NCBI GenBank assembly: GCA_964409385.1
Contig: CAYPCY010000002.1
Location: 79,941 to 143,940 of the forward strand
DNA: 64,000 bases
Source: an uncultured Methanosarcinales archaeon
GTDB taxonomy: Archaea; Nanobdellota; Nanobdellia; Woesearchaeales; CAYPCY01
Reading direction: 5' to 3'
Shown: positions 4,414-26,361 of the stretch, in pieces
Layout: the number at the start of each line of letters is the position of its first letter
How positions within the stretch are numbered: the stretch's first letter is position 1
Program-made: the position numbers and the translations under genes
Notes under the pieces: generated by a model
Databases searched by the model: none
What the model saw: only the letters and a program-made list of their open reading frames with translations
What the model was told of the DNA's origin: nothing

Positions 4414-5244
4414 ATGAAATTAATATTCTTAATAATCCTCTTAACAGCATGTTCTATTCCTTCAGAAGAAGGTTCTATAGAGGTTGAATTCTGTCCTGGA
4501 TGTTATAATACCTTCATTAGTTTAATTAACAATTCTGAAAATATTTCTTGTGCTTTTTATGAAGTAGATAAGAAGATTATTTCCTTACTCGAAGAAAAGA
4601 AAGCTAACATATTCTTACATAATAAGACTTGGGGCCTGATGCACAACAAATATTGTGTTTTAAACAAAAAAACAGTAATTACAGGAAGTTTAAACCCTAC
4701 AAATAATGGCTTCACCAAAAACAGGAATAATATTGTAATAATAAATTCTTCAATACTAGCAAATAATTATTTATCAAAATTTAATAATTTAAAGTATGGA
4801 AGTAAAACTAAAATAATACACAAATTTAAGCTTTCAGGAATAATAATAGAAAATTATTTTTGCCCTGAAGATTCTTGCGAGGAGAAAGTAATTAATATTT
4901 TAGAGAAAGAAAAAAACATTAAATTTATGTTATTCACAATCACTTCAGATAGTATTGGAAATTTATTAAAAGAAAGAAACGCCTCAGGAATTATAGATCC
5001 TTTACAAAAGAACATTAAAGGTTCTGAATATAAAAAATTAAACACTGAAGTTTACAATTGCAAAGGAAAATTACATCATAAAGTTTTCTTTACCGATAAT
5101 ATTGTAATTACCGGAAGTTACAATCCTACAAATGCAGGAAACACAATTAATGATGAGAATATAATAATAATTCACAATAAAAAAATAGTAAACAAATTCA
5201 AGAAAGAATTCTCACTCCTTCAACATTGCACTTTCTCTGATTAG
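4414..5244 (+). CDS. Secreted/lipoprotein phospholipase-D-family (Nuc-like) nuclease with two HKD motifs
   Basis: N-terminal signal peptide with lipobox LLTAC|S. Two HxK(x4)D(x6)G motifs: MHNKYCVLNKKTVITGSLNPT and LHHKVFFTDNIVITGSYNPT. Confidence 0.7.
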   Translation: MKLIFLIILLTACSIPSEEGSIEVEFCPGCYNTFISLINNSENISCAFYEVDKKIISLLEEKKANIFLHNKTWGLMHNKYCVLNKKTVITGSLNPTNNGFTKNRNNIVIINSSILANNYLSKFNNLKYGSKTKIIHKFKLSGIIIENYFCPEDSCEEKVINILEKEKNIKFMLFTITSDSIGNLLKERNASGIIDPLQKNIKGSEYKKLNTEVYNCKGKLHHKVFFTDNIVITGSYNPTNAGNTINDENIIIIHNKKIVNKFKKEFSLLQHCTFSD

Positions 5245-5592
5245 CAATCTAGGAATATTATTTTTAATAATATTTATTCTTTTTTCGGTTAGTTTCGATT
5301 CTAAAAATTCTTCTCTTTCAAGCCTTCTAATGAGTGTCTCCAATAATCTAATATCTTCAACTTCTTCTCTTTGAAGGTCAACAAGTTTTGACTTTCCAGT
5401 TTTTTTTATGAGATTAGATTTTTTATTTTCTACCTTTCTAATTATTCTTAATCCATTGATTATTTTAGCATATAATTTTTCATCAGCACTACCATGTCTT
5501 TTTACATCTTCAAGTATATCAATAAATCTAGAAATACTTTCAAATGCTGAGATAATACCTTCGATTAATTCTTCTATTCTTTTGTAAATCAT
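5212..5592 (-). CDS. Hypothetical protein
   Basis: 126-aa ORF co-oriented and 4-bp overlapping with the upstream membrane-protein gene; no recognisable motif. Confidence 0.35.
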   Translation of the reverse strand: MIYKRIEELIEGIISAFESISRFIDILEDVKRHGSADEKLYAKIINGLRIIRKVENKKSNLIKKTGKSKLVDLQREEVEDIRLLETLIRRLEREEFLESKLTEKRINIIKNNIPRLLIRESAMLKE

Positions 5593-6200
5593 TCGCTCTT
5601 ACCTATCAAGTCTGCAGTACAAGCTCCCAAGACTGCAAGTATACTAATTGCAGCAACGCTTTTATATATTTCTTCAAACTGAGTTTCTAAATTTGCAAAT
5701 CCGAATAAAAATAAGACAAATACAACAACTGATAAGGCAGTAATATAAACAGTTAATATCCTTAAAGGAATAAACTTTAATGATTTGCTCTCTTTAATTT
5801 CTCTATAGCCACTATAGTAAATAAACATACTTCCAATAAGAAAAGAAACCAAGTAAAGTAATGAAGCTCTCATCATAGAAATTTCATGAGCTATCTTAAT
5901 ACCATAAAAGAAAGCAAAATGACCCATTATTCCAATAAACGCACCTATAATACTCTTACTAATATCTCGTAATGTGACTCTTTTCAAAGGACTAGATTTT
6001 AATTCTTTCTTAATATCCTTTTCTAAATTTTTTAATTCTTCAAGATCCTCTAATTCTTCCTTTTCAGCCTTCAAAAGTTTCTGATCTGAAGCCAAATCTT
6101 TCTCTTCTGCATCTTGAAGAATTTTTTGATTTTTCAAGACTTTTTGCTGATTCTTAAGAATTTTCTTATTAAGAGTTATTATTTCGTCTAACTTACTCAT
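5589..6200 (-). CDS. Membrane protein with N-terminal coiled coil (DUF2391-like)
   Basis: Charged coiled-coil N-terminus followed by about four TM helices. Confidence 0.5.
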   Translation of the reverse strand: MSKLDEIITLNKKILKNQQKVLKNQKILQDAEEKDLASDQKLLKAEKEELEDLEELKNLEKDIKKELKSSPLKRVTLRDISKSIIGAFIGIMGHFAFFYGIKIAHEISMMRASLLYLVSFLIGSMFIYYSGYREIKESKSLKFIPLRILTVYITALSVVVFVLFLFGFANLETQFEEIYKSVAAISILAVLGACTADLIGKSE

Positions 6201-6235: not shown

Positions 6236-7258
6236 CTACTGGTTATTATATGCTTCTACTTCTTCATATAATACAGTAAGTTTAATCCCTGCTTGCTTCA
6301 ATAATTTTCTGCTTTCTTGAGCCGCATGATATTGTTTTTCACAAATAACTTCCGTAATTCCAGAATTTATAATCATTTTAGCACAGGCTGGGCAAGGTTC
6401 CATTTTTACATAGATGGATGATCCATCAATACAAATACCATGTTTTGAAGCTTGAACTATTGCATTCTGTTCCGCATGTGTTGTTCTAACACAATGTTTC
6501 CTTTCTACACCGTCAGAATGAATTGTTGATTCCATTTGATGACCTGCCTCGTCACAATGTGGTAAATGTGTCGGCGCTCCAGCATATCCTGTAGATAATA
6601 TTCTTTTATCTTTTACTATAACACAACCTGCCTTACCCCTATTACAAGTTCCTCTAGATCCTACCGATTTCATTATTGAAATGAAATATTCTTCCCAAGA
6701 GGGTCTTAATTTAAATTTTAAGTCTTTCAAGACTTTATCAACCTTATTATGTACTTTTTTTAATGAAGAATCATTTATTACTACTATATTAGCTGCTTTC
6801 TTAATCTTATTATGTGCCCTAAAATGACTTCCTCCCCCCTTACTTTCTAATTCTTCCATTATTTTGAATTCTTCAAAAGTTTTAGGATCTTTTTCTCTGT
6901 TTCTAGCAAGTAACCTTTCAAATCTTAATGTTTGAGGGGCATCTACAAATACTAAATTAAAATCTTCTCTTTGTTTAAGAACTTCAACTTCTCCTTCAGT
7001 ACCTATTGAGCTAATAATATAATTTTGATTCTGATCTAATTTTATTAATGTCTTCCAAGCTAGAATTCCAGGACCATACTCTGTTCTTAACTCATTTCCT
7101 AAGATTTGTAAATTCTTCCTTGTAATTTCTTTATTTTCTTTCCCTAAATCTTCCCTAAGAATATTAGATAGTGAATAGTGAATGAATCCTTTTCCTTGCA
7201 AATAATTTGCAACAGTGTCTTTTCCAGAAGCATAGCTTCCCCCCAAGCCTATAATCAT
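6236..7258 (-). CDS. Fusion protein: T4-type dNMP kinase-like N-domain + dCMP deaminase C-domain
   Basis: N-terminus: GLGGSYASGKDT P-loop and IVVINDSSLKKVHNKV, resembling phage T4 gp1 dNMP kinase (SGVKRSGKDT...LVITNDGSLEEL). C-terminus: HAEQNAI...PCPACAKMI cytidine/dCMP deaminase zinc-binding signature. Confidence 0.7.
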   Translation of the reverse strand: MIIGLGGSYASGKDTVANYLQGKGFIHYSLSNILREDLGKENKEITRKNLQILGNELRTEYGPGILAWKTLIKLDQNQNYIISSIGTEGEVEVLKQREDFNLVFVDAPQTLRFERLLARNREKDPKTFEEFKIMEELESKGGGSHFRAHNKIKKAANIVVINDSSLKKVHNKVDKVLKDLKFKLRPSWEEYFISIMKSVGSRGTCNRGKAGCVIVKDKRILSTGYAGAPTHLPHCDEAGHQMESTIHSDGVERKHCVRTTHAEQNAIVQASKHGICIDGSSIYVKMEPCPACAKMIINSGITEVICEKQYHAAQESRKLLKQAGIKLTVLYEEVEAYNNQ

Positions 7259-7366
7259 ATATTTTCTATATTTAACATTCTTTAAATCATTTACTATTCT
7301 AAAATGAAAAGTTTCCGGAGTAAACTTTATAAACGATACAAAATTCAGTTTTTTTGGTGATATATT

Positions 7367-24964: not shown

Positions 24965-25576
24965 ATGATTGCAGGTGTAGATGAGGCAGGAAGAGGTTCT
25001 GTTATTGGTCCTTTAGTTATTGCTCTTGCTGAAATTCCAGAGTCTAAACTTTCTTTACTAACTGAAATAGGTGTTAAAGATTCTAAACTTTTGAAAAGAA
25101 ATAAACGAAAAGAAATTCTTGAGAAAGTGAATAATATTGCAAAATTCTACTATAAAATTTTTGATGCTCATGAAATAGTTAATTTCATGAAGTTAAAATC
25201 TTTGAATCAGTTAGAACTTGGGGGAATGGTTAATCTTTCTAATAGTGCAAGATCTGAGAAGATAATTATTGACTGTCCTTCAGCAGGTATTACTTCCTTC
25301 TCGAAAGATATTAATTGTTTATTGAATAATCCTAAAACTTTAATTATTGAGCATAAGGCTGATTTGAATCATTCAATAGTCGCGTTAGCTTCTATTGCTG
25401 CTAAAGAGAAAAGAGAAGATTTAATTGATGTTTTAAAAGAAAAATTTGGAGATTTTGGTAGTGGATATCCTGCAGATCCAAAAGCAAAAGCTTATTTAAC
25501 AGATAATCCTGAAATTAGTATTGTGAGAACTAACTGGAGTACTTGGAAGAATAGGGTCCAAACTAGATTAATATGA
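24965..25576 (+). CDS. rnhB: Ribonuclease HII
   Basis: MIAGVDEAGRGSVIGPLVIA catalytic motif; GVKDSKLL; GSGYP. Confidence 0.85.
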   Translation: MIAGVDEAGRGSVIGPLVIALAEIPESKLSLLTEIGVKDSKLLKRNKRKEILEKVNNIAKFYYKIFDAHEIVNFMKLKSLNQLELGGMVNLSNSARSEKIIIDCPSAGITSFSKDINCLLNNPKTLIIEHKADLNHSIVALASIAAKEKREDLIDVLKEKFGDFGSGYPADPKAKAYLTDNPEISIVRTNWSTWKNRVQTRLI

Positions 25577-26361
25577 ATATTTCAATAAATTATGAAGAGG
25601 GAATGATTAAGAAACTTAGAAAGCTAGGATTTAGAGATATTCCCAAAAAAACACCTTTTGAAAAATTAAGATTAGAAAAGAATTGTTTAGTAGTACTATA
25701 TAATACTGGAAAATTATTGCTTCAAGGTTCTGACTCTGGAGTATTGCACACTTTAAGTGATTTAAGAGGTAAGAAAAAACAAAATAAATTAGATTCTGAA
25801 GAGGAAATTATTGGTAGTGATGAAACTTTGAAGGGAGATACTTTTGGCGGATTAATAGTCAGTGGTTTTAAGGGAAATTCTAGAATTAGATCTAGACTTA
25901 TGTCTTTAGGAGTTAAGGATTCTAAACTACTTTCAGAACAACAAATTTTGAGGATTGCTGAAGCGTTAGAGAAAGAGTTTCCAAATAGAATTTGTATTAT
26001 TGAATTATCTCCGGAAAATTACAATCACAAAATGTCATATACTAGTGTTACAGGATTACTGAATCAAATGCATCAAGATGTTTATAATACTCTAAAGCCA
26101 GGAAAACATGTTGTTGATAAATATCCTGGTTGCAAGATTGGTGATGAAATTCTTGAGAAGGCAGAATCTAAATATTTAGAGGTTGCTGCCGCATCTATTG
26201 TTGCTAGAAAAAGAGCTTTAGATCAGTTTGATAGACTTAGTGAAAAAATCGGATTTACACTTCCTAAAGGAAGCACTCATGTTAGTGATGCTTTAAGAAA
26301 GTTAGAAATTAAAGGATTGAATAAAGCAAGATTTGTCAAGACCCATTTTAGGAATGTTTAA
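25573..26361 (+). CDS. rnhC: Ribonuclease HIII-like (TBP-like N-domain + type-2 RNase H domain)
   Basis: N-domain VVLYNTGKLLLQGSDSG resembles B. subtilis RnhC ITAYKSGKVLFQGKNAG. Catalytic IGSDETLKGDTFGGLIV matches the HIII signature IGSDEVGKGDYFGPLVV. The start overlaps the rnhB stop (ATGA). Confidence 0.7.
   Translation: MNISINYEEGMIKKLRKLGFRDIPKKTPFEKLRLEKNCLVVLYNTGKLLLQGSDSGVLHTLSDLRGKKKQNKLDSEEEIIGSDETLKGDTFGGLIVSGFKGNSRIRSRLMSLGVKDSKLLSEQQILRIAEALEKEFPNRICIIELSPENYNHKMSYTSVTGLLNQMHQDVYNTLKPGKHVVDKYPGCKIGDEILEKAESKYLEVAAASIVARKRALDQFDRLSEKIGFTLPKGSTHVSDALRKLEIKGLNKARFVKTHFRNV

What the first reader, a model, noticed from the sequence alone, without database searches (positions are those of the whole stretch)
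6236..7258. Fusion of a T4-type dNMP kinase domain to dCMP deaminase
The N-terminal 180 aa carry GxxxSGKDT and a C-terminal IVVINDSSL block like phage T4 gp1 dNMP kinase. The C-terminal 160 aa are an unmistakable zinc-dependent dCMP deaminase (HAEQNAI / PCxxC). A single polypeptide would convert dCMP to dUMP and phosphorylate dNMPs. That is a compact salvage module in a reduced genome, sitting beside a secreted nuclease.
Basis: partly seen in the sequence, partly recalled or inferred. Interest (0 to 1): 0.55.

Follow-up and report, generated by a model that had tools for sequence, protein, structure and literature searches.

The report
Kinase fused to dCMP deaminase
A small archaeon encodes one protein that joins a nucleotide-kinase-like domain to a dCMP deaminase; the fusion is real, widespread and most likely a routine thymidine-nucleotide enzyme, not a T4-type kinase or a phage-defence gene.

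Summary

- **C-terminal half:** an unmistakable zinc dCMP deaminase of the ComEB/DCTD clade.
- **N-terminal half:** a P-loop NMP-kinase-like domain. Its closest relative is the uncharacterised archaeal UPF0200/AdkA-like family. Short phage dNMP kinases are more distant full-length homologues. T4 gp1 itself matches only at the P-loop and the last strand-helix, so "T4-type" is not supported.
- **Distribution:** common in DPANN archaea, Patescibacteria and Bacteroidales. It occurs fused, as two adjacent genes, and fused in the reverse order.
- **Neighbours in relatives:** ThyX, thymidylate kinase and NrdR-RNR in archaea and Patescibacteria; PurE or LOG in Bacteroidales. None are defence genes.
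- **Relation to AvcD/DcdV:** it shares the kinase+deaminase architecture of these anti-phage dCTP deaminases. It fails their size, score and context criteria.

Best reading: a housekeeping bifunctional enzyme at the dCMP branch point of dTTP synthesis. The kinase substrate is unknown.

Novelty: a compact variant of a published architecture. Interest is moderate.

The parts
6236..7258 (-). Whole ORF, 340 aa plus stop codon: fused P-loop kinase-like domain and dCMP deaminase domain
   Evidence: Searches show an uninterrupted ORF. One search finds more than 120 full-length homologues. One search finds the identical protein on 4 contigs.
6719..7258 (-). N-terminal domain, residues 1-180: P-loop NMP-kinase-like fold of the UPF0200/AdkA-like assemblage
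   Evidence: NF006226 scores 88 bits over residues 1-179. The family profile hits 3h0k/3lw7 at E 3e-28. Foldseek matches 3lw7 with TM 0.86 and rmsd 2.6. hhalign gives 99.5%.
7214..7249 (-). P-loop (Walker A), residues 4-15, GLGGSYASGKDT
   Evidence: G4, G7, G12 and K13 are invariant in 83 homologues. The region aligns to the T4 gp1 P-loop, LSGVKRSGKDT.
7154..7174 (-). NMP-binding-type motif, residues 29-35, S-L-S-N-I-L-R, matching the Adk and UMP/CMP-kinase motif S-x-G-D-x-L-R
   Evidence: S29, S31 and R35 are invariant. The motif aligns to LSAGDLLR of Dictyostelium UMP/CMP kinase 1qf9.
6896..6925 (-). Arginine-rich LID-like segment, residues 112-121, RFERLLARNR
   Evidence: R112 is 83/83, R115 76/83, R119 82/83 and R121 73/83. 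The segment aligns to RYKRMIERLR of SSO1041.
6818..6820 (-). R147, the relocated arginine. It pairs with G86, where most relatives have R86 with Q147.
   Evidence: The states are exclusive in alignment A3: R86/Q147 in 52, G86/R147 in 30 and R86/M147 in 1 of 83.
6761..6793 (-). Last strand of the kinase fold, residues 156-166, ANIVVINDSSL, followed by the C-terminal helix
   Evidence: N162 is 82/83. This block gives the only hhalign match to T4 gp1, and it also matches SSO1041.
6239..6706 (-). C-terminal domain, residues 185-340: zinc-dependent dCMP deaminase of the ComEB/DCTD clade
   Evidence: PF00383 scores 78.9 bits and TIGR02571 ComEB 116 bits. S. mutans dCMP deaminase 2hvv hits at E 3.7e-27 with TM 0.89.
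6470..6478 (-). Catalytic H261-A-E263: zinc ligand and proton shuttle
   Evidence: H261 and E263 are invariant. The codons read CAT GCG GAA.
6383..6397 (-). P288-C289-P-A-C292 zinc-binding motif
   Evidence: P288, C289 and C292 are invariant. The codons were checked.
6578..6589 (-). G224-Y-A-G227, at the position of the DCTD allosteric motif G(Y/W)N(A/G). The Asn is replaced by Ala here.
   Evidence: Position 226 is V in 68, A in 6 and N in 6 of 83 members of the window's clade. It is N in 33 of 45 members of the wider family. The motif definition comes from PMC12088426.

Best explanation
The gene encodes a housekeeping, two-domain pyrimidine deoxynucleotide enzyme of a DPANN-type archaeon.

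**Deaminase domain (strongly supported).** The C-terminal domain is an active zinc dCMP deaminase that makes dUMP. dUMP is the substrate of thymidylate synthase and then thymidylate kinase.

**Kinase domain (inferred).** The N-terminal domain is a catalytically competent P-loop NMP-kinase-like domain of the UPF0200 type. It acts on the same nucleotide pool as the deaminase. My preferred reading is that it interconverts dCMP and dCDP. That would let dCDP from ribonucleotide reductase, or salvaged dCMP, be partitioned between dCTP and dUMP/dTTP. A broader dNMP kinase activity, as in phage DNMK enzymes, is the close alternative.

**Shown and inferred.**
- Shown: the fusion, the domain identities, conservation of the catalytic residues, and the genomic linkage to ThyX, Tmk, NrdR and RNR in relatives.
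- Inferred: kinase activity, its substrate, and the direction of flux.
For: **The fusion is real and ancient.**
- The ORF is uninterrupted.
- More than 120 full-length homologues share 50-89% identity, and dozens of 50%-identity clusters of 330-350 aa exist.

**The two parts are functionally coupled in several independent ways.**
- They are two adjacent genes in 16 of 57 loci, once in reversed order.
- Permuted deaminase-kinase fusions also exist.

**The deaminase looks active.**
- PF00383 scores 78.9 bits.
- 2hvv hits at E 3.7e-27 with TM 0.89.
- HAE, PCxxC and the second-zinc residues C205, H234/C235 and H255/C256 are conserved.

**The kinase-like domain looks active.**
- The P-loop lysine, the Adk-type S-x-S-(D/N)-x-L-R motif, and R47, R58, R112, R115 and R119 are conserved in both fused and stand-alone forms.
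- An arginine has swapped position in mutually exclusive fashion (R86/Q147 versus G86/R147), which suggests the arginine is kept under selection.
- The closest solved relative, 3lw7, is AMP-bound.

**The context is housekeeping.**
- The window and L001 carry PGI, TrxR, CDC48, GatD/E and TruD.
- 11 of 15 distinct archaeal or Patescibacterial loci have ThyX, Tmk, NrdR or RNR within 8 kb. One is a ThyX-Tmk-fusion-NrdR-RNR string, and others have a divergent ThyX-Tmk pair.
- Bacteroidales have PurE upstream in 17 loci or a LOG-family gene in 11.
- No plasmid record holds the full protein.
- None of the 80 best viral-contig matches covers the kinase half.
- GC content is uniform across the locus.
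Against: - No enzymology exists for this clade or for UPF0200. The literature search found nothing.
- The window itself has no ThyX, Tmk or RNR within 64 kb, so linkage rests on relatives.
- The window protein lacks the core Arg (G86) that aligns with the GFPR arginine of UMP/CMP kinase. Compensation by R147 is inferred from covariation, not from coordinates. The covariation may also reflect a single ancestral event.
- D32 of the NMP motif is N in the window protein.
- The canonical allosteric Asn is missing in this clade, which also fits a regulatory role for the N-domain.
- PADLOC's defence model dCTPase matches both domains at 102 bits.
- Stand-alone kinases occur in organisms with no adjacent deaminase, so the kinase's function is not tied only to dCMP.
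Confidence: 0.6

Rival explanations
1. The N-terminal domain does not catalyse phosphotransfer. Instead it is a nucleotide-binding regulatory or substrate-recruiting module for the deaminase, sensing ATP or dNTPs, or holding the phosphates of dCDP or dCTP. On this reading it replaces the canonical dCTP/dTTP allosteric site.
For: - The Asn of the DCTD allosteric motif G(Y/W)N(A/G) is V or A in 74 of 83 members of the window's clade, and the window reads GYAG (motif from PMC12088426).
- In DcdV/AvcD and the E. coli dCTP deaminase, P-loop mutations abolish deaminase-dependent phenotypes, yet no kinase reaction has been shown.
- The window protein has G86 and N32 at two NMP-kinase positions.
Against: - The same arginine set and P-loop are conserved in stand-alone homologues that have no deaminase nearby.
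- The R86/R147 swap keeps one arginine in every member of A3.
- The wider family keeps GYNG yet still carries the kinase domain, with N in 33 of 45.
Confidence: 0.2
2. It is a compact member of the anti-phage dCTP deaminase family (AvcD/DcdV type). On infection it would deplete dCTP and dCMP.
For: - It has the same two-domain order.
- PADLOC dCTPase PDLC02373 scores 102 bits (E 8.7e-30) across both domains.
- NCBIfam antiphage_deaminase scores 78.6 bits.
- Hsueh et al. report PLK+DCD homologues in Bacteroidetes and a few archaea.
Against: - The NCBIfam score is 78.6 against a cut-off of 400.
- It is 340 aa, against 532-576 aa for the studied proteins and the >350 aa rule of Tal et al..
- The neighbours are housekeeping or dNTP-synthesis genes, never defence genes.
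- Identity is 50-59% across many DPANN lineages.
- No full-length copy is found on plasmids.
- Only 108 bp lie upstream before a divergent ORF, which leaves no room for a 174-nt AvcI/DifV-type RNA.
Confidence: 0.1
3. The N-domain is a dephospho-CoA kinase, as some sources name the stand-alone homologues. On this reading its fusion to the deaminase has no metabolic meaning.
For: - JGI and UniRef label several stand-alone homologues 'dephospho-CoA kinase'.
- Pfam CoaE hits 8 of 12 N-domain homologues, with a best E of 3.4e-7.
- The family profile hits Legionella CoaE 4ttp at E 3e-8.
Against: - CoaE scores 17-20 bits against a cut-off of 27 in the window protein, and only over residues 1-26.
- TIGR00152 scores 19-21 bits against a cut-off of 65.6.
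- UPF0200 is about 20 orders of magnitude better in E-value.
- Repeated independent fusion or adjacency with a dCMP deaminase, and with ThyX and Tmk, has no link to CoA.
Confidence: 0.03

Closest known systems
Zinc-dependent dCMP deaminase, ComEB/DCTD clade (e.g. Streptococcus mutans 2hvv/2hvw; T4 Cd 1vq2)
   Same: - The C-terminal 156 aa align end to end with 2hvv (E 3.7e-27), and the fold matches with TM 0.89.
- HAE, PCxxC, the NA motif after HxE, the second-zinc insert and the conserved Tyr are all present.
   Different: - It carries a 180-aa kinase-like domain at the N-terminus.
- It scores below the ComEB equivalog cut-off, 113-116 bits against 219.
- The allosteric GYNG motif reads GYAG.
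UPF0200 / 'adenylate kinase-related' protein SSO1041 of Sulfolobus solfataricus (PDB 3h0k, 3lw7) and NCBIfam PRK08356
   Same: - The match runs the full length of the N-domain: family profile E 3e-28, hhalign 99.5% over 159 columns, and fold TM 0.86 with rmsd 2.6.
- The P-loop, the R-x-x-R-x-x-x-R LID segment and the final I-x-N-D-S strand are shared.
   Different: - UPF0200 proteins are stand-alone and are not linked to a deaminase.
- The window domain scores 88 bits against the PRK08356 cut-off of 189.
- The function of UPF0200 is itself unknown.
Anti-phage dCTP deaminase AvcD/DcdV and the E. coli AW1.7 dCTP deaminase (Hsueh et al.; Tal et al.)
   Same: - Same architecture: an N-terminal P-loop kinase-like domain and a C-terminal dCMP-deaminase-like domain.
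- The PADLOC model aligns collinearly with both domains.
   Different: - It is 340 aa against 532-576 aa.
- It scores far below the NCBIfam cut-off.
- Its context is housekeeping or dNTP synthesis rather than defence islands.
- There is no upstream antitoxin RNA locus.
- The deaminase domain is much closer to housekeeping ComEB-type enzymes.
Phage deoxynucleoside monophosphate kinases (Pfam PF21448 DNMK; T4 gp1, PDB 1dek)
   Same: - The GxxxxGKD(T) P-loop and the final strand-helix block are shared with T4 gp1.
- Short phage DNMK members of about 180 aa are full-length remote homologues (hhalign 98-99.4%) and lie next to phage dCMP deaminase genes.
   Different: - It scores below the DNMK gathering threshold, 16-19 bits against 27.1.
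- T4 gp1 aligns over only 39 plus 28 residues.
- 1dek is not among the top 50 fold matches.
- The bona fide DNMK kinase of L154 aligns without the RxxRxxxR LID segment.

Membership tests
Zinc-dependent dCMP deaminase (DCTD/ComEB clade, Pfam PF00383) | Pfam dCMP_cyt_deam_1 score above the gathering score, and a deaminase fold | tested here: met
   The score is 78.9 bits against a cut-off of 25. Foldseek matches 2hvw with TM 0.89 at E 5e-15.
Zinc-dependent dCMP deaminase (DCTD/ComEB clade, Pfam PF00383) | Catalytic HxE and PCxxC zinc motifs | tested here: met
   H261-A-E263 and P288-C-P-A-C292 are present and invariant in 83 homologues.
Zinc-dependent dCMP deaminase (DCTD/ComEB clade, Pfam PF00383) | Clade signatures from Iyer et al. 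2011: a second zinc site (a Cys before strand 1, plus two Cys and a His in the insert before HxE), an NA motif after HxE, and a Tyr between strand 4 and helix 4 | tested here: met
   C205, H234, C235, H255, C256, N265-A266 and Y310 are conserved. The feature list comes from PMC3239186. The Asn of the NxxP motif is Ala in this protein.
Zinc-dependent dCMP deaminase (DCTD/ComEB clade, Pfam PF00383) | Allosteric motif G(Y/W)N(A/G) for dCTP and dTTP | tested here: not met
   The window reads G-Y-A-G. Position 226 is V or A in 74 of 83 clade members and N in 33 of 45 wider relatives. The motif comes from PMC12088426.
Zinc-dependent dCMP deaminase (DCTD/ComEB clade, Pfam PF00383) | ComEB equivalog score (TIGR02571) | tested here: not met
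   The score is 113-116 bits against a cut-off of 219. It is a relative, not an equivalog.
Zinc-dependent dCMP deaminase (DCTD/ComEB clade, Pfam PF00383) | Deamination of dCMP to dUMP | not testable with these tools
   This needs an enzyme assay.
T4-type dNMP kinase (Pfam PF21448 DNMK; gp1) | Pfam DNMK score above the gathering score | tested here: not met
   The score is 16.2 bits for the whole protein and 19.1 bits for the N-domain, against a cut-off of 27.1. Only residues 3-47 match.
T4-type dNMP kinase (Pfam PF21448 DNMK; gp1) | Full-length alignment to T4 gp1 / 1dek | tested here: not met
   - BLASTP matches residues 2-39 only, at E 0.003.
- hhalign aligns 28 C-terminal columns at 70%.
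- The family profile hits 1dek at E 0.16.
- 1dek is absent from the top 50 Foldseek matches.
T4-type dNMP kinase (Pfam PF21448 DNMK; gp1) | P-loop with Asp after the Lys, GxxxxGKD(T) | tested here: met
   The window reads GSYASGKDT and T4 gp1 reads GVKRSGKDT. D14 is present in 73 of 83 homologues.
T4-type dNMP kinase (Pfam PF21448 DNMK; gp1) | Homology to other (short) DNMK family members | tested here: met
   hhalign of A2 against phage deaminase-adjacent kinases gives 99.4% at E 9e-22 over 172 columns. Against the bona fide DNMK of L154 (69 bits) it gives 98%.
T4-type dNMP kinase (Pfam PF21448 DNMK; gp1) | Phosphorylation of dTMP, dGMP and hm-dCMP | not testable with these tools
   The T4 record gives this specificity. 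This protein would need an assay.
UPF0200 / AdkA-like kinases (SSO1041; NCBIfam NF006226) | Full-length sequence and fold match to SSO1041 | tested here: met
   - phmmer gives E 6e-6.
- The family profile gives E 3e-28.
- hhalign gives 99.5%.
- Foldseek matches 3lw7 with TM 0.86.
UPF0200 / AdkA-like kinases (SSO1041; NCBIfam NF006226) | NCBIfam NF006226 equivalog cut-off | tested here: not met
   The score is 88 bits against a cut-off of 189. It is a sister group, not the same equivalog.
Anti-phage dCTP deaminase (AvcD/DcdV; NCBIfam NF041025; PADLOC dCTPase) | N-terminal P-loop kinase-like domain plus C-terminal DCD domain | tested here: met
   The PADLOC model aligns residues 1-234 and 258-305. 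The architecture follows.
Anti-phage dCTP deaminase (AvcD/DcdV; NCBIfam NF041025; PADLOC dCTPase) | NCBIfam equivalog score | tested here: not met
   The score is 78.6 bits against a cut-off of 400.
Anti-phage dCTP deaminase (AvcD/DcdV; NCBIfam NF041025; PADLOC dCTPase) | Size over 350 aa and a defence-island neighbourhood (criteria of Tal et al.) | tested here: not met
   The protein is 340 aa. Neighbours here and in about 70 related loci are housekeeping or nucleotide-synthesis genes.
Anti-phage dCTP deaminase (AvcD/DcdV; NCBIfam NF041025; PADLOC dCTPase) | Inhibitory small RNA or small ORF encoded immediately 5' in the same orientation (AvcI/DifV, 174 nt) | tested here: not met
   Only 108 bp (7259-7366) separate the start codon from a divergently oriented ORF. 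The RNA is not conserved in sequence, so this is a test of available space only.
Anti-phage dCTP deaminase (AvcD/DcdV; NCBIfam NF041025; PADLOC dCTPase) | dCTP deamination and phage protection | not testable with these tools
   This needs expression, dNTP pool measurement and phage challenge.
Dephospho-CoA kinase (CoaE, PF01121 / TIGR00152) | Family score above the cut-off over the full domain | tested here: not met
   PF01121 scores 17.2-19.9 bits against a cut-off of 27, over residues 1-26 only. TIGR00152 scores 18.9-20.7 bits against 65.6.

The most novel reading that the evidence does not exclude
The compact UPF0200-type kinase + dCMP deaminase may be the housekeeping prototype from which the AvcD/DcdV anti-phage dCTP deaminases were derived. 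Its kinase domain may be a reversible (d)CMP/dCDP phosphotransferase that feeds higher phosphorylated dC nucleotides to the deaminase.

If so, it would explain the still unknown role of the P-loop domain in the defence enzymes. It would also define a route from ribonucleotide-reductase products to dUMP that is independent of Dcd and dUTPase, in DPANN archaea, Patescibacteria and Bacteroidales. As a by-product, it would give a first function to the UPF0200 kinase family.
Probability: 0.2. Interest if true: 0.6.

Novelty: new variant of a known kind. Interest (0 to 1): 0.4.

Why it matters
The role of the P-loop domain in kinase+deaminase proteins is unresolved, even for the well-studied phage-defence enzymes AvcD/DcdV. 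This compact form offers a simpler system for asking what the kinase domain does.

- It is highly conserved.
- It sits with ThyX, thymidylate kinase and ribonucleotide reductase genes.
- It exists fused, split and permuted.

It would also clarify how genome-reduced archaea and bacteria obtain dUMP and balance dCTP against dTTP. Finally, it cautions against calling every kinase+deaminase fusion a defence gene: PADLOC's model hits this protein at E 9e-30. Otherwise the gene is an ordinary metabolic gene in an ordinary chromosomal neighbourhood.

Tried and rejected
- **Frameshift or two genes:** rejected. The ORF is uninterrupted, identical copies sit on 4 contigs, and more than 120 full-length homologues exist.
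- **Mobile or defence origin:** no compositional anomaly, no full-length plasmid hit, and no full-length match among the best 80 viral contigs.
- **Obtaining an AvcD-type sequence for direct comparison:** failed. Plasmid hit H20 was a plain 157-aa deaminase. Comparison with the defence family therefore rests on the NCBIfam and PADLOC models.
- **The search for related loci with the diverse alignment A1:** failed for lack of a conserved stretch. It was redone with A3.
- **Literature:** searches for a UPF0200/SSO1041 function and for a described archaeal kinase-dCMP deaminase enzyme found nothing relevant.
- **ThyX, Tmk, NrdR, RNR or MazG in the window:** none found.
- **Residues 86 and 147 in the model:** model coordinates are not exposed to scripts, so I could not check their spatial proximity or the domain interface (pTM 0.66).
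- **Nuclease link:** rejected. The PLD gene is two genes away and does not recur in the neighbourhood clusters of 57 loci.
Full report
**1. The observation**

Window 6236..7258 holds one ORF on the minus strand. It is 340 aa, starts at the ATG at 7258, and has no internal stop. All four quoted motifs are there:
- GSYASGKDT at residues 7-15.
- IVVINDSSL at 158-166.
- HAEQNAI at 261-267.
- PCPAC at 288-292.

I checked the last two, and GYAG at 224-227, codon by codon against the DNA.

Several results show the ORF is a genuine gene:
- The start matches that of homologues (MIIG...).
- The identical protein is on record from four contigs.
- A homology search returned 1887 hits. The best 120 are nearly all full-length proteins of about 340 aa with 50-89% identity.

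**2. The organism and the neighbourhood**

The window has a uniform GC content of about 30%, with no anomaly at the locus. It carries archaeal housekeeping genes:
- GatD/GatE, CDC48, TruD, topoisomerase and SMC.
- Proteasome alpha and exosome Rrp4.
- ThrRS and a class I tRNA synthetase.

The nearest GTDB relatives of the protein are labelled Woesearchaeota or Nanoarchaeota. This is a DPANN-type archaeal chromosome.

Around the gene lie PGI, thioredoxin reductase, an SDR, a PLD-family protein, a coiled-coil ORF, a DUF2391 membrane protein, a 135-aa ORF and CDC48. The same order is kept in the closest relative, L001.

The PLD protein (4414..5244) has two PLDc_2 domains and a lipoprotein-like N-terminus. 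Its best solved matches are MitoPLD/Zucchini and the Nuc endonuclease. A nuclease role is plausible. However, it lies two genes away, and it does not recur next to homologues elsewhere.

**3. The C-terminal domain**

Residues 185-340 are a zinc dCMP deaminase:
- Pfam PF00383 scores 78.9 bits, and the ComEB model scores 116 bits.
- Streptococcus mutans dCMP deaminase hits at E 3.7e-27 over 137 residues.
- The AlphaFold model (pLDDT 90.6) superposes on 2hvw with TM 0.89.
- The catalytic HAE and PCxxC are invariant in 83 homologues.
- The clade markers listed by Iyer et al. are present: second-zinc ligands, NA after HxE, and the Tyr after strand 4.

There is one departure. The allosteric motif G(Y/W)N(A/G), which binds dCTP and dTTP in classical DCTDs (PMC12088426), reads GYAG here. 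Its Asn is V or A in 74 of 83 members of the window's clade. In the wider fused family it is N in 33 of 45.

**4. The N-terminal domain**

This domain is a P-loop kinase fold, but not specifically a T4-type one.

*Single-sequence scores.*
- AAA_18 scores 36 bits. CoaE scores 17 and DNMK 16, both below cut-off and both confined to the P-loop.
- NCBIfam PRK08356, a 'hypothetical protein', scores 88 bits over residues 1-179.
- The PDB best hit is the UPF0200 protein SSO1041.

*Family profile built from stand-alone relatives (A2), against the PDB.*

| Target | E-value |
|---|---|
| SSO1041 | 3e-28 |
| CoaE | 3e-8 |
| Adenylate kinase 1 | ~1e-5 |
| UMP/CMP kinase | 1e-4 |
| T4 dNMP kinase 1dek | 0.16 |

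*Profile comparisons on an equal footing.*

| Target | hhalign probability | Aligned columns |
|---|---|---|
| SSO1041 | 99.5% | 159 |
| Bona fide phage DNMK member (L154, 69 bits in Pfam) | 98% | 150 |
| T4 gp1 | 70% | 28 |

BLASTP against T4 gp1 aligns only residues 2-39. The best structural match to the N-domain is 3lw7, the AMP-bound SSO1041, with TM 0.86 and rmsd 2.6. UMP/CMP kinases, CoaE and adenylate kinases follow, and 1dek is not in the top 50.

They are also shared with SSO1041, so they are not specific to T4 gp1. The closest family is UPF0200, for which I found no published function.

**5. Is the kinase domain likely to be active?**

The following are conserved across 83 fused proteins, and also in stand-alone relatives:
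- G4, G7, G12 and K13 of the P-loop.
- S29-L-S31-(D/N)-x-L-R35. This aligns with the NMP-binding LSAGDLLR of UMP/CMP kinase.
- R47, R58 and E90.
- R112, R115, R119 and R121, a LID-like RxxRxxxRxR segment.
- N162.

The window protein has Gly at position 86, where most relatives have Arg. This position aligns with the Arg of the GFPR motif in UMP/CMP kinase. Every G86 sequence has Arg at position 147, and no R86 sequence has Arg there. The counts are 52 R/Q, 30 G/R and 1 R/M out of 83.

This looks like relocation of an active-site arginine and argues for retained function. It may be a single historical event, though, and I could not check the geometry because model coordinates are not exposed.

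**6. Distribution and gene linkage**

*Size of the family.* The exhaustive search found 15,619 proteins at E ≤ 1e-3. Many of these are plain deaminases. It also found dozens of 50%-identity clusters of fused proteins of 330-350 aa.

*Taxa.* Among GTDB species genomes, the pair occurs in Woesearchaeota/Nanoarchaeota, Patescibacteria and many Bacteroidales. These taxon labels come from MAG record titles.

*Forms.* Together the forms below are a classic sign of functional coupling:
- In 16 of 57 loci the two halves are separate adjacent genes. Once they are in the order deaminase then kinase.
- Permuted deaminase-kinase fusions exist.
- So do a deaminase-dUTPase fusion and intein-bearing deaminases.

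*Neighbours in archaea and Patescibacteria.* 11 of 15 distinct loci have dNTP-synthesis genes within 8 kb:
- A ThyX-Tmk-fusion-NrdR-RNR string (L004-6).
- ThyX-Tmk placed divergently from the split pair (L009, L091/92).
- Tmk or ThyX directly adjacent (L002, L059, L065).
- NrdR or RNR nearby (L011, L014, L029, L033).

*Neighbours in Bacteroidales.* The gene upstream is PurE in 17 loci, or a LOG-family nucleotide-processing gene in 11.

*Phages.* In phage contigs, a distantly related DNMK-type kinase directly follows the dCMP deaminase gene. In one case this sits in a string of DHFR-deaminase fusion, kinase and RNR.

*Absences.* No defence genes recur in these neighbourhoods. No plasmid holds the full-length protein. 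None of the best 80 viral contigs has the kinase half fused.

The window itself has no ThyX, Tmk or RNR within its 64 kb.

**7. Mechanism**

*Shown:*
- One polypeptide with an intact dCMP-deaminase active site and an intact-looking NMP-kinase-type nucleotide site.
- Repeated genomic coupling of the two.
- Linkage to the thymidylate branch.

*Inferred:* the deaminase makes dUMP for ThyX, and the kinase domain works on the same pool.

I favour dCMP/dCDP interconversion. Fused or operonic enzymes usually act in sequence, and NMP kinases are reversible. It would connect RNR products or salvaged dCMP to dUMP without Dcd or dUTPase.

A non-catalytic, nucleotide-sensing role is the main rival. It is favoured by the missing allosteric Asn in this clade and by the unknown role of the P-loop domain in AvcD/DcdV.

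**8. Comparison with what is known**

The architecture 'P-loop kinase + deoxycytidylate deaminase' has been published for the anti-phage enzymes DcdV/AvcD (532 aa) and the E. coli dCTP deaminase (576 aa). Those authors noted homologues in Bacteroidetes and a few archaea.

The window protein resembles them in domain order, and it is hit by PADLOC's dCTPase model at 102 bits. It fails four tests of membership:
- The NCBIfam cut-off: 78.6 bits against 400.
- The >350 aa rule of Tal et al..
- The defence-island context.
- Room for an upstream inhibitory RNA.

It works like a dCMP deaminase with an attached kinase. It should not be filed as a defence dCTP deaminase, as T4 gp1-type, or as CoaE.

**9. 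Verdict**

The finding is real and correctly read in outline, but the family label for the kinase domain is wrong. The fusion is neither rare nor peculiar to a reduced genome. It is a compact, probably housekeeping variant of a known architecture.

Its main value is as a clean system for learning what the kinase domain of such fusions does. It is also a warning against annotating such fusions as defence genes. I score interest at 0.4.

Noticed in passing
window 24965..25576 and 25573..26361 (+): Two RNase HII (PF01351) genes lie in tandem and overlap by 4 bp. The second has an N-terminal extension of about 80 aa.
   Followed up: no
window 4414..5244 (+): A PLD-family protein has two PLDc_2 domains and a lipoprotein-like signal (LLTAC). 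Its best solved matches are MitoPLD/Zucchini and the Nuc endonuclease.
   Followed up: partly
window 6818..6820 and 7001..7003 (residues 147 and 86 of the fusion protein); alignment A3: An arginine occupies one of two positions in mutually exclusive fashion. R86/Q147 occurs in 52 homologues and G86/R147 in 30 of 83, including the window protein. This suggests a relocated active-site arginine in the kinase domain.
   Followed up: partly
P0164, P0247, P0172, P0228, P0232 (relatives of the deaminase domain): The same deaminase occurs fused in the reverse order (deaminase-kinase), fused to a dUTPase, and interrupted by inteins.
   Followed up: partly
L154 5530..9239; L169 5995..7025; L161 5554..7116 (IMG/VR contigs): Phage contigs place a DNMK-family kinase directly after the dCMP deaminase gene. 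In L154 the deaminase is fused to DHFR and is followed by the kinase and a class II RNR.
   Followed up: partly
L008, L093, L094 (Endomicrobia): The stand-alone form of the kinase (186-187 aa) overlaps the start of an HI0933-like flavoprotein gene in three genomes. No deaminase is nearby, so the kinase family also has a role unconnected to dCMP deaminase.
   Followed up: no
L004-L006 6000..9840: The class II ribonucleotide reductase next to the fusion gene carries an intein with a LAGLIDADG endonuclease. The contig is labelled Berkelbacteria but also holds an archaeal-type ThrRS editing domain and AsnC regulators, so the taxon label may be wrong.
   Followed up: no
window 5212..6200 (-): Two co-directional genes follow the fusion gene: a DUF2391 membrane protein with a coiled-coil N-terminus, and a 126-aa coiled-coil ORF overlapping it by 4 bp. 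They may share an operon with it. The arrangement is conserved only in L001.
   Followed up: no
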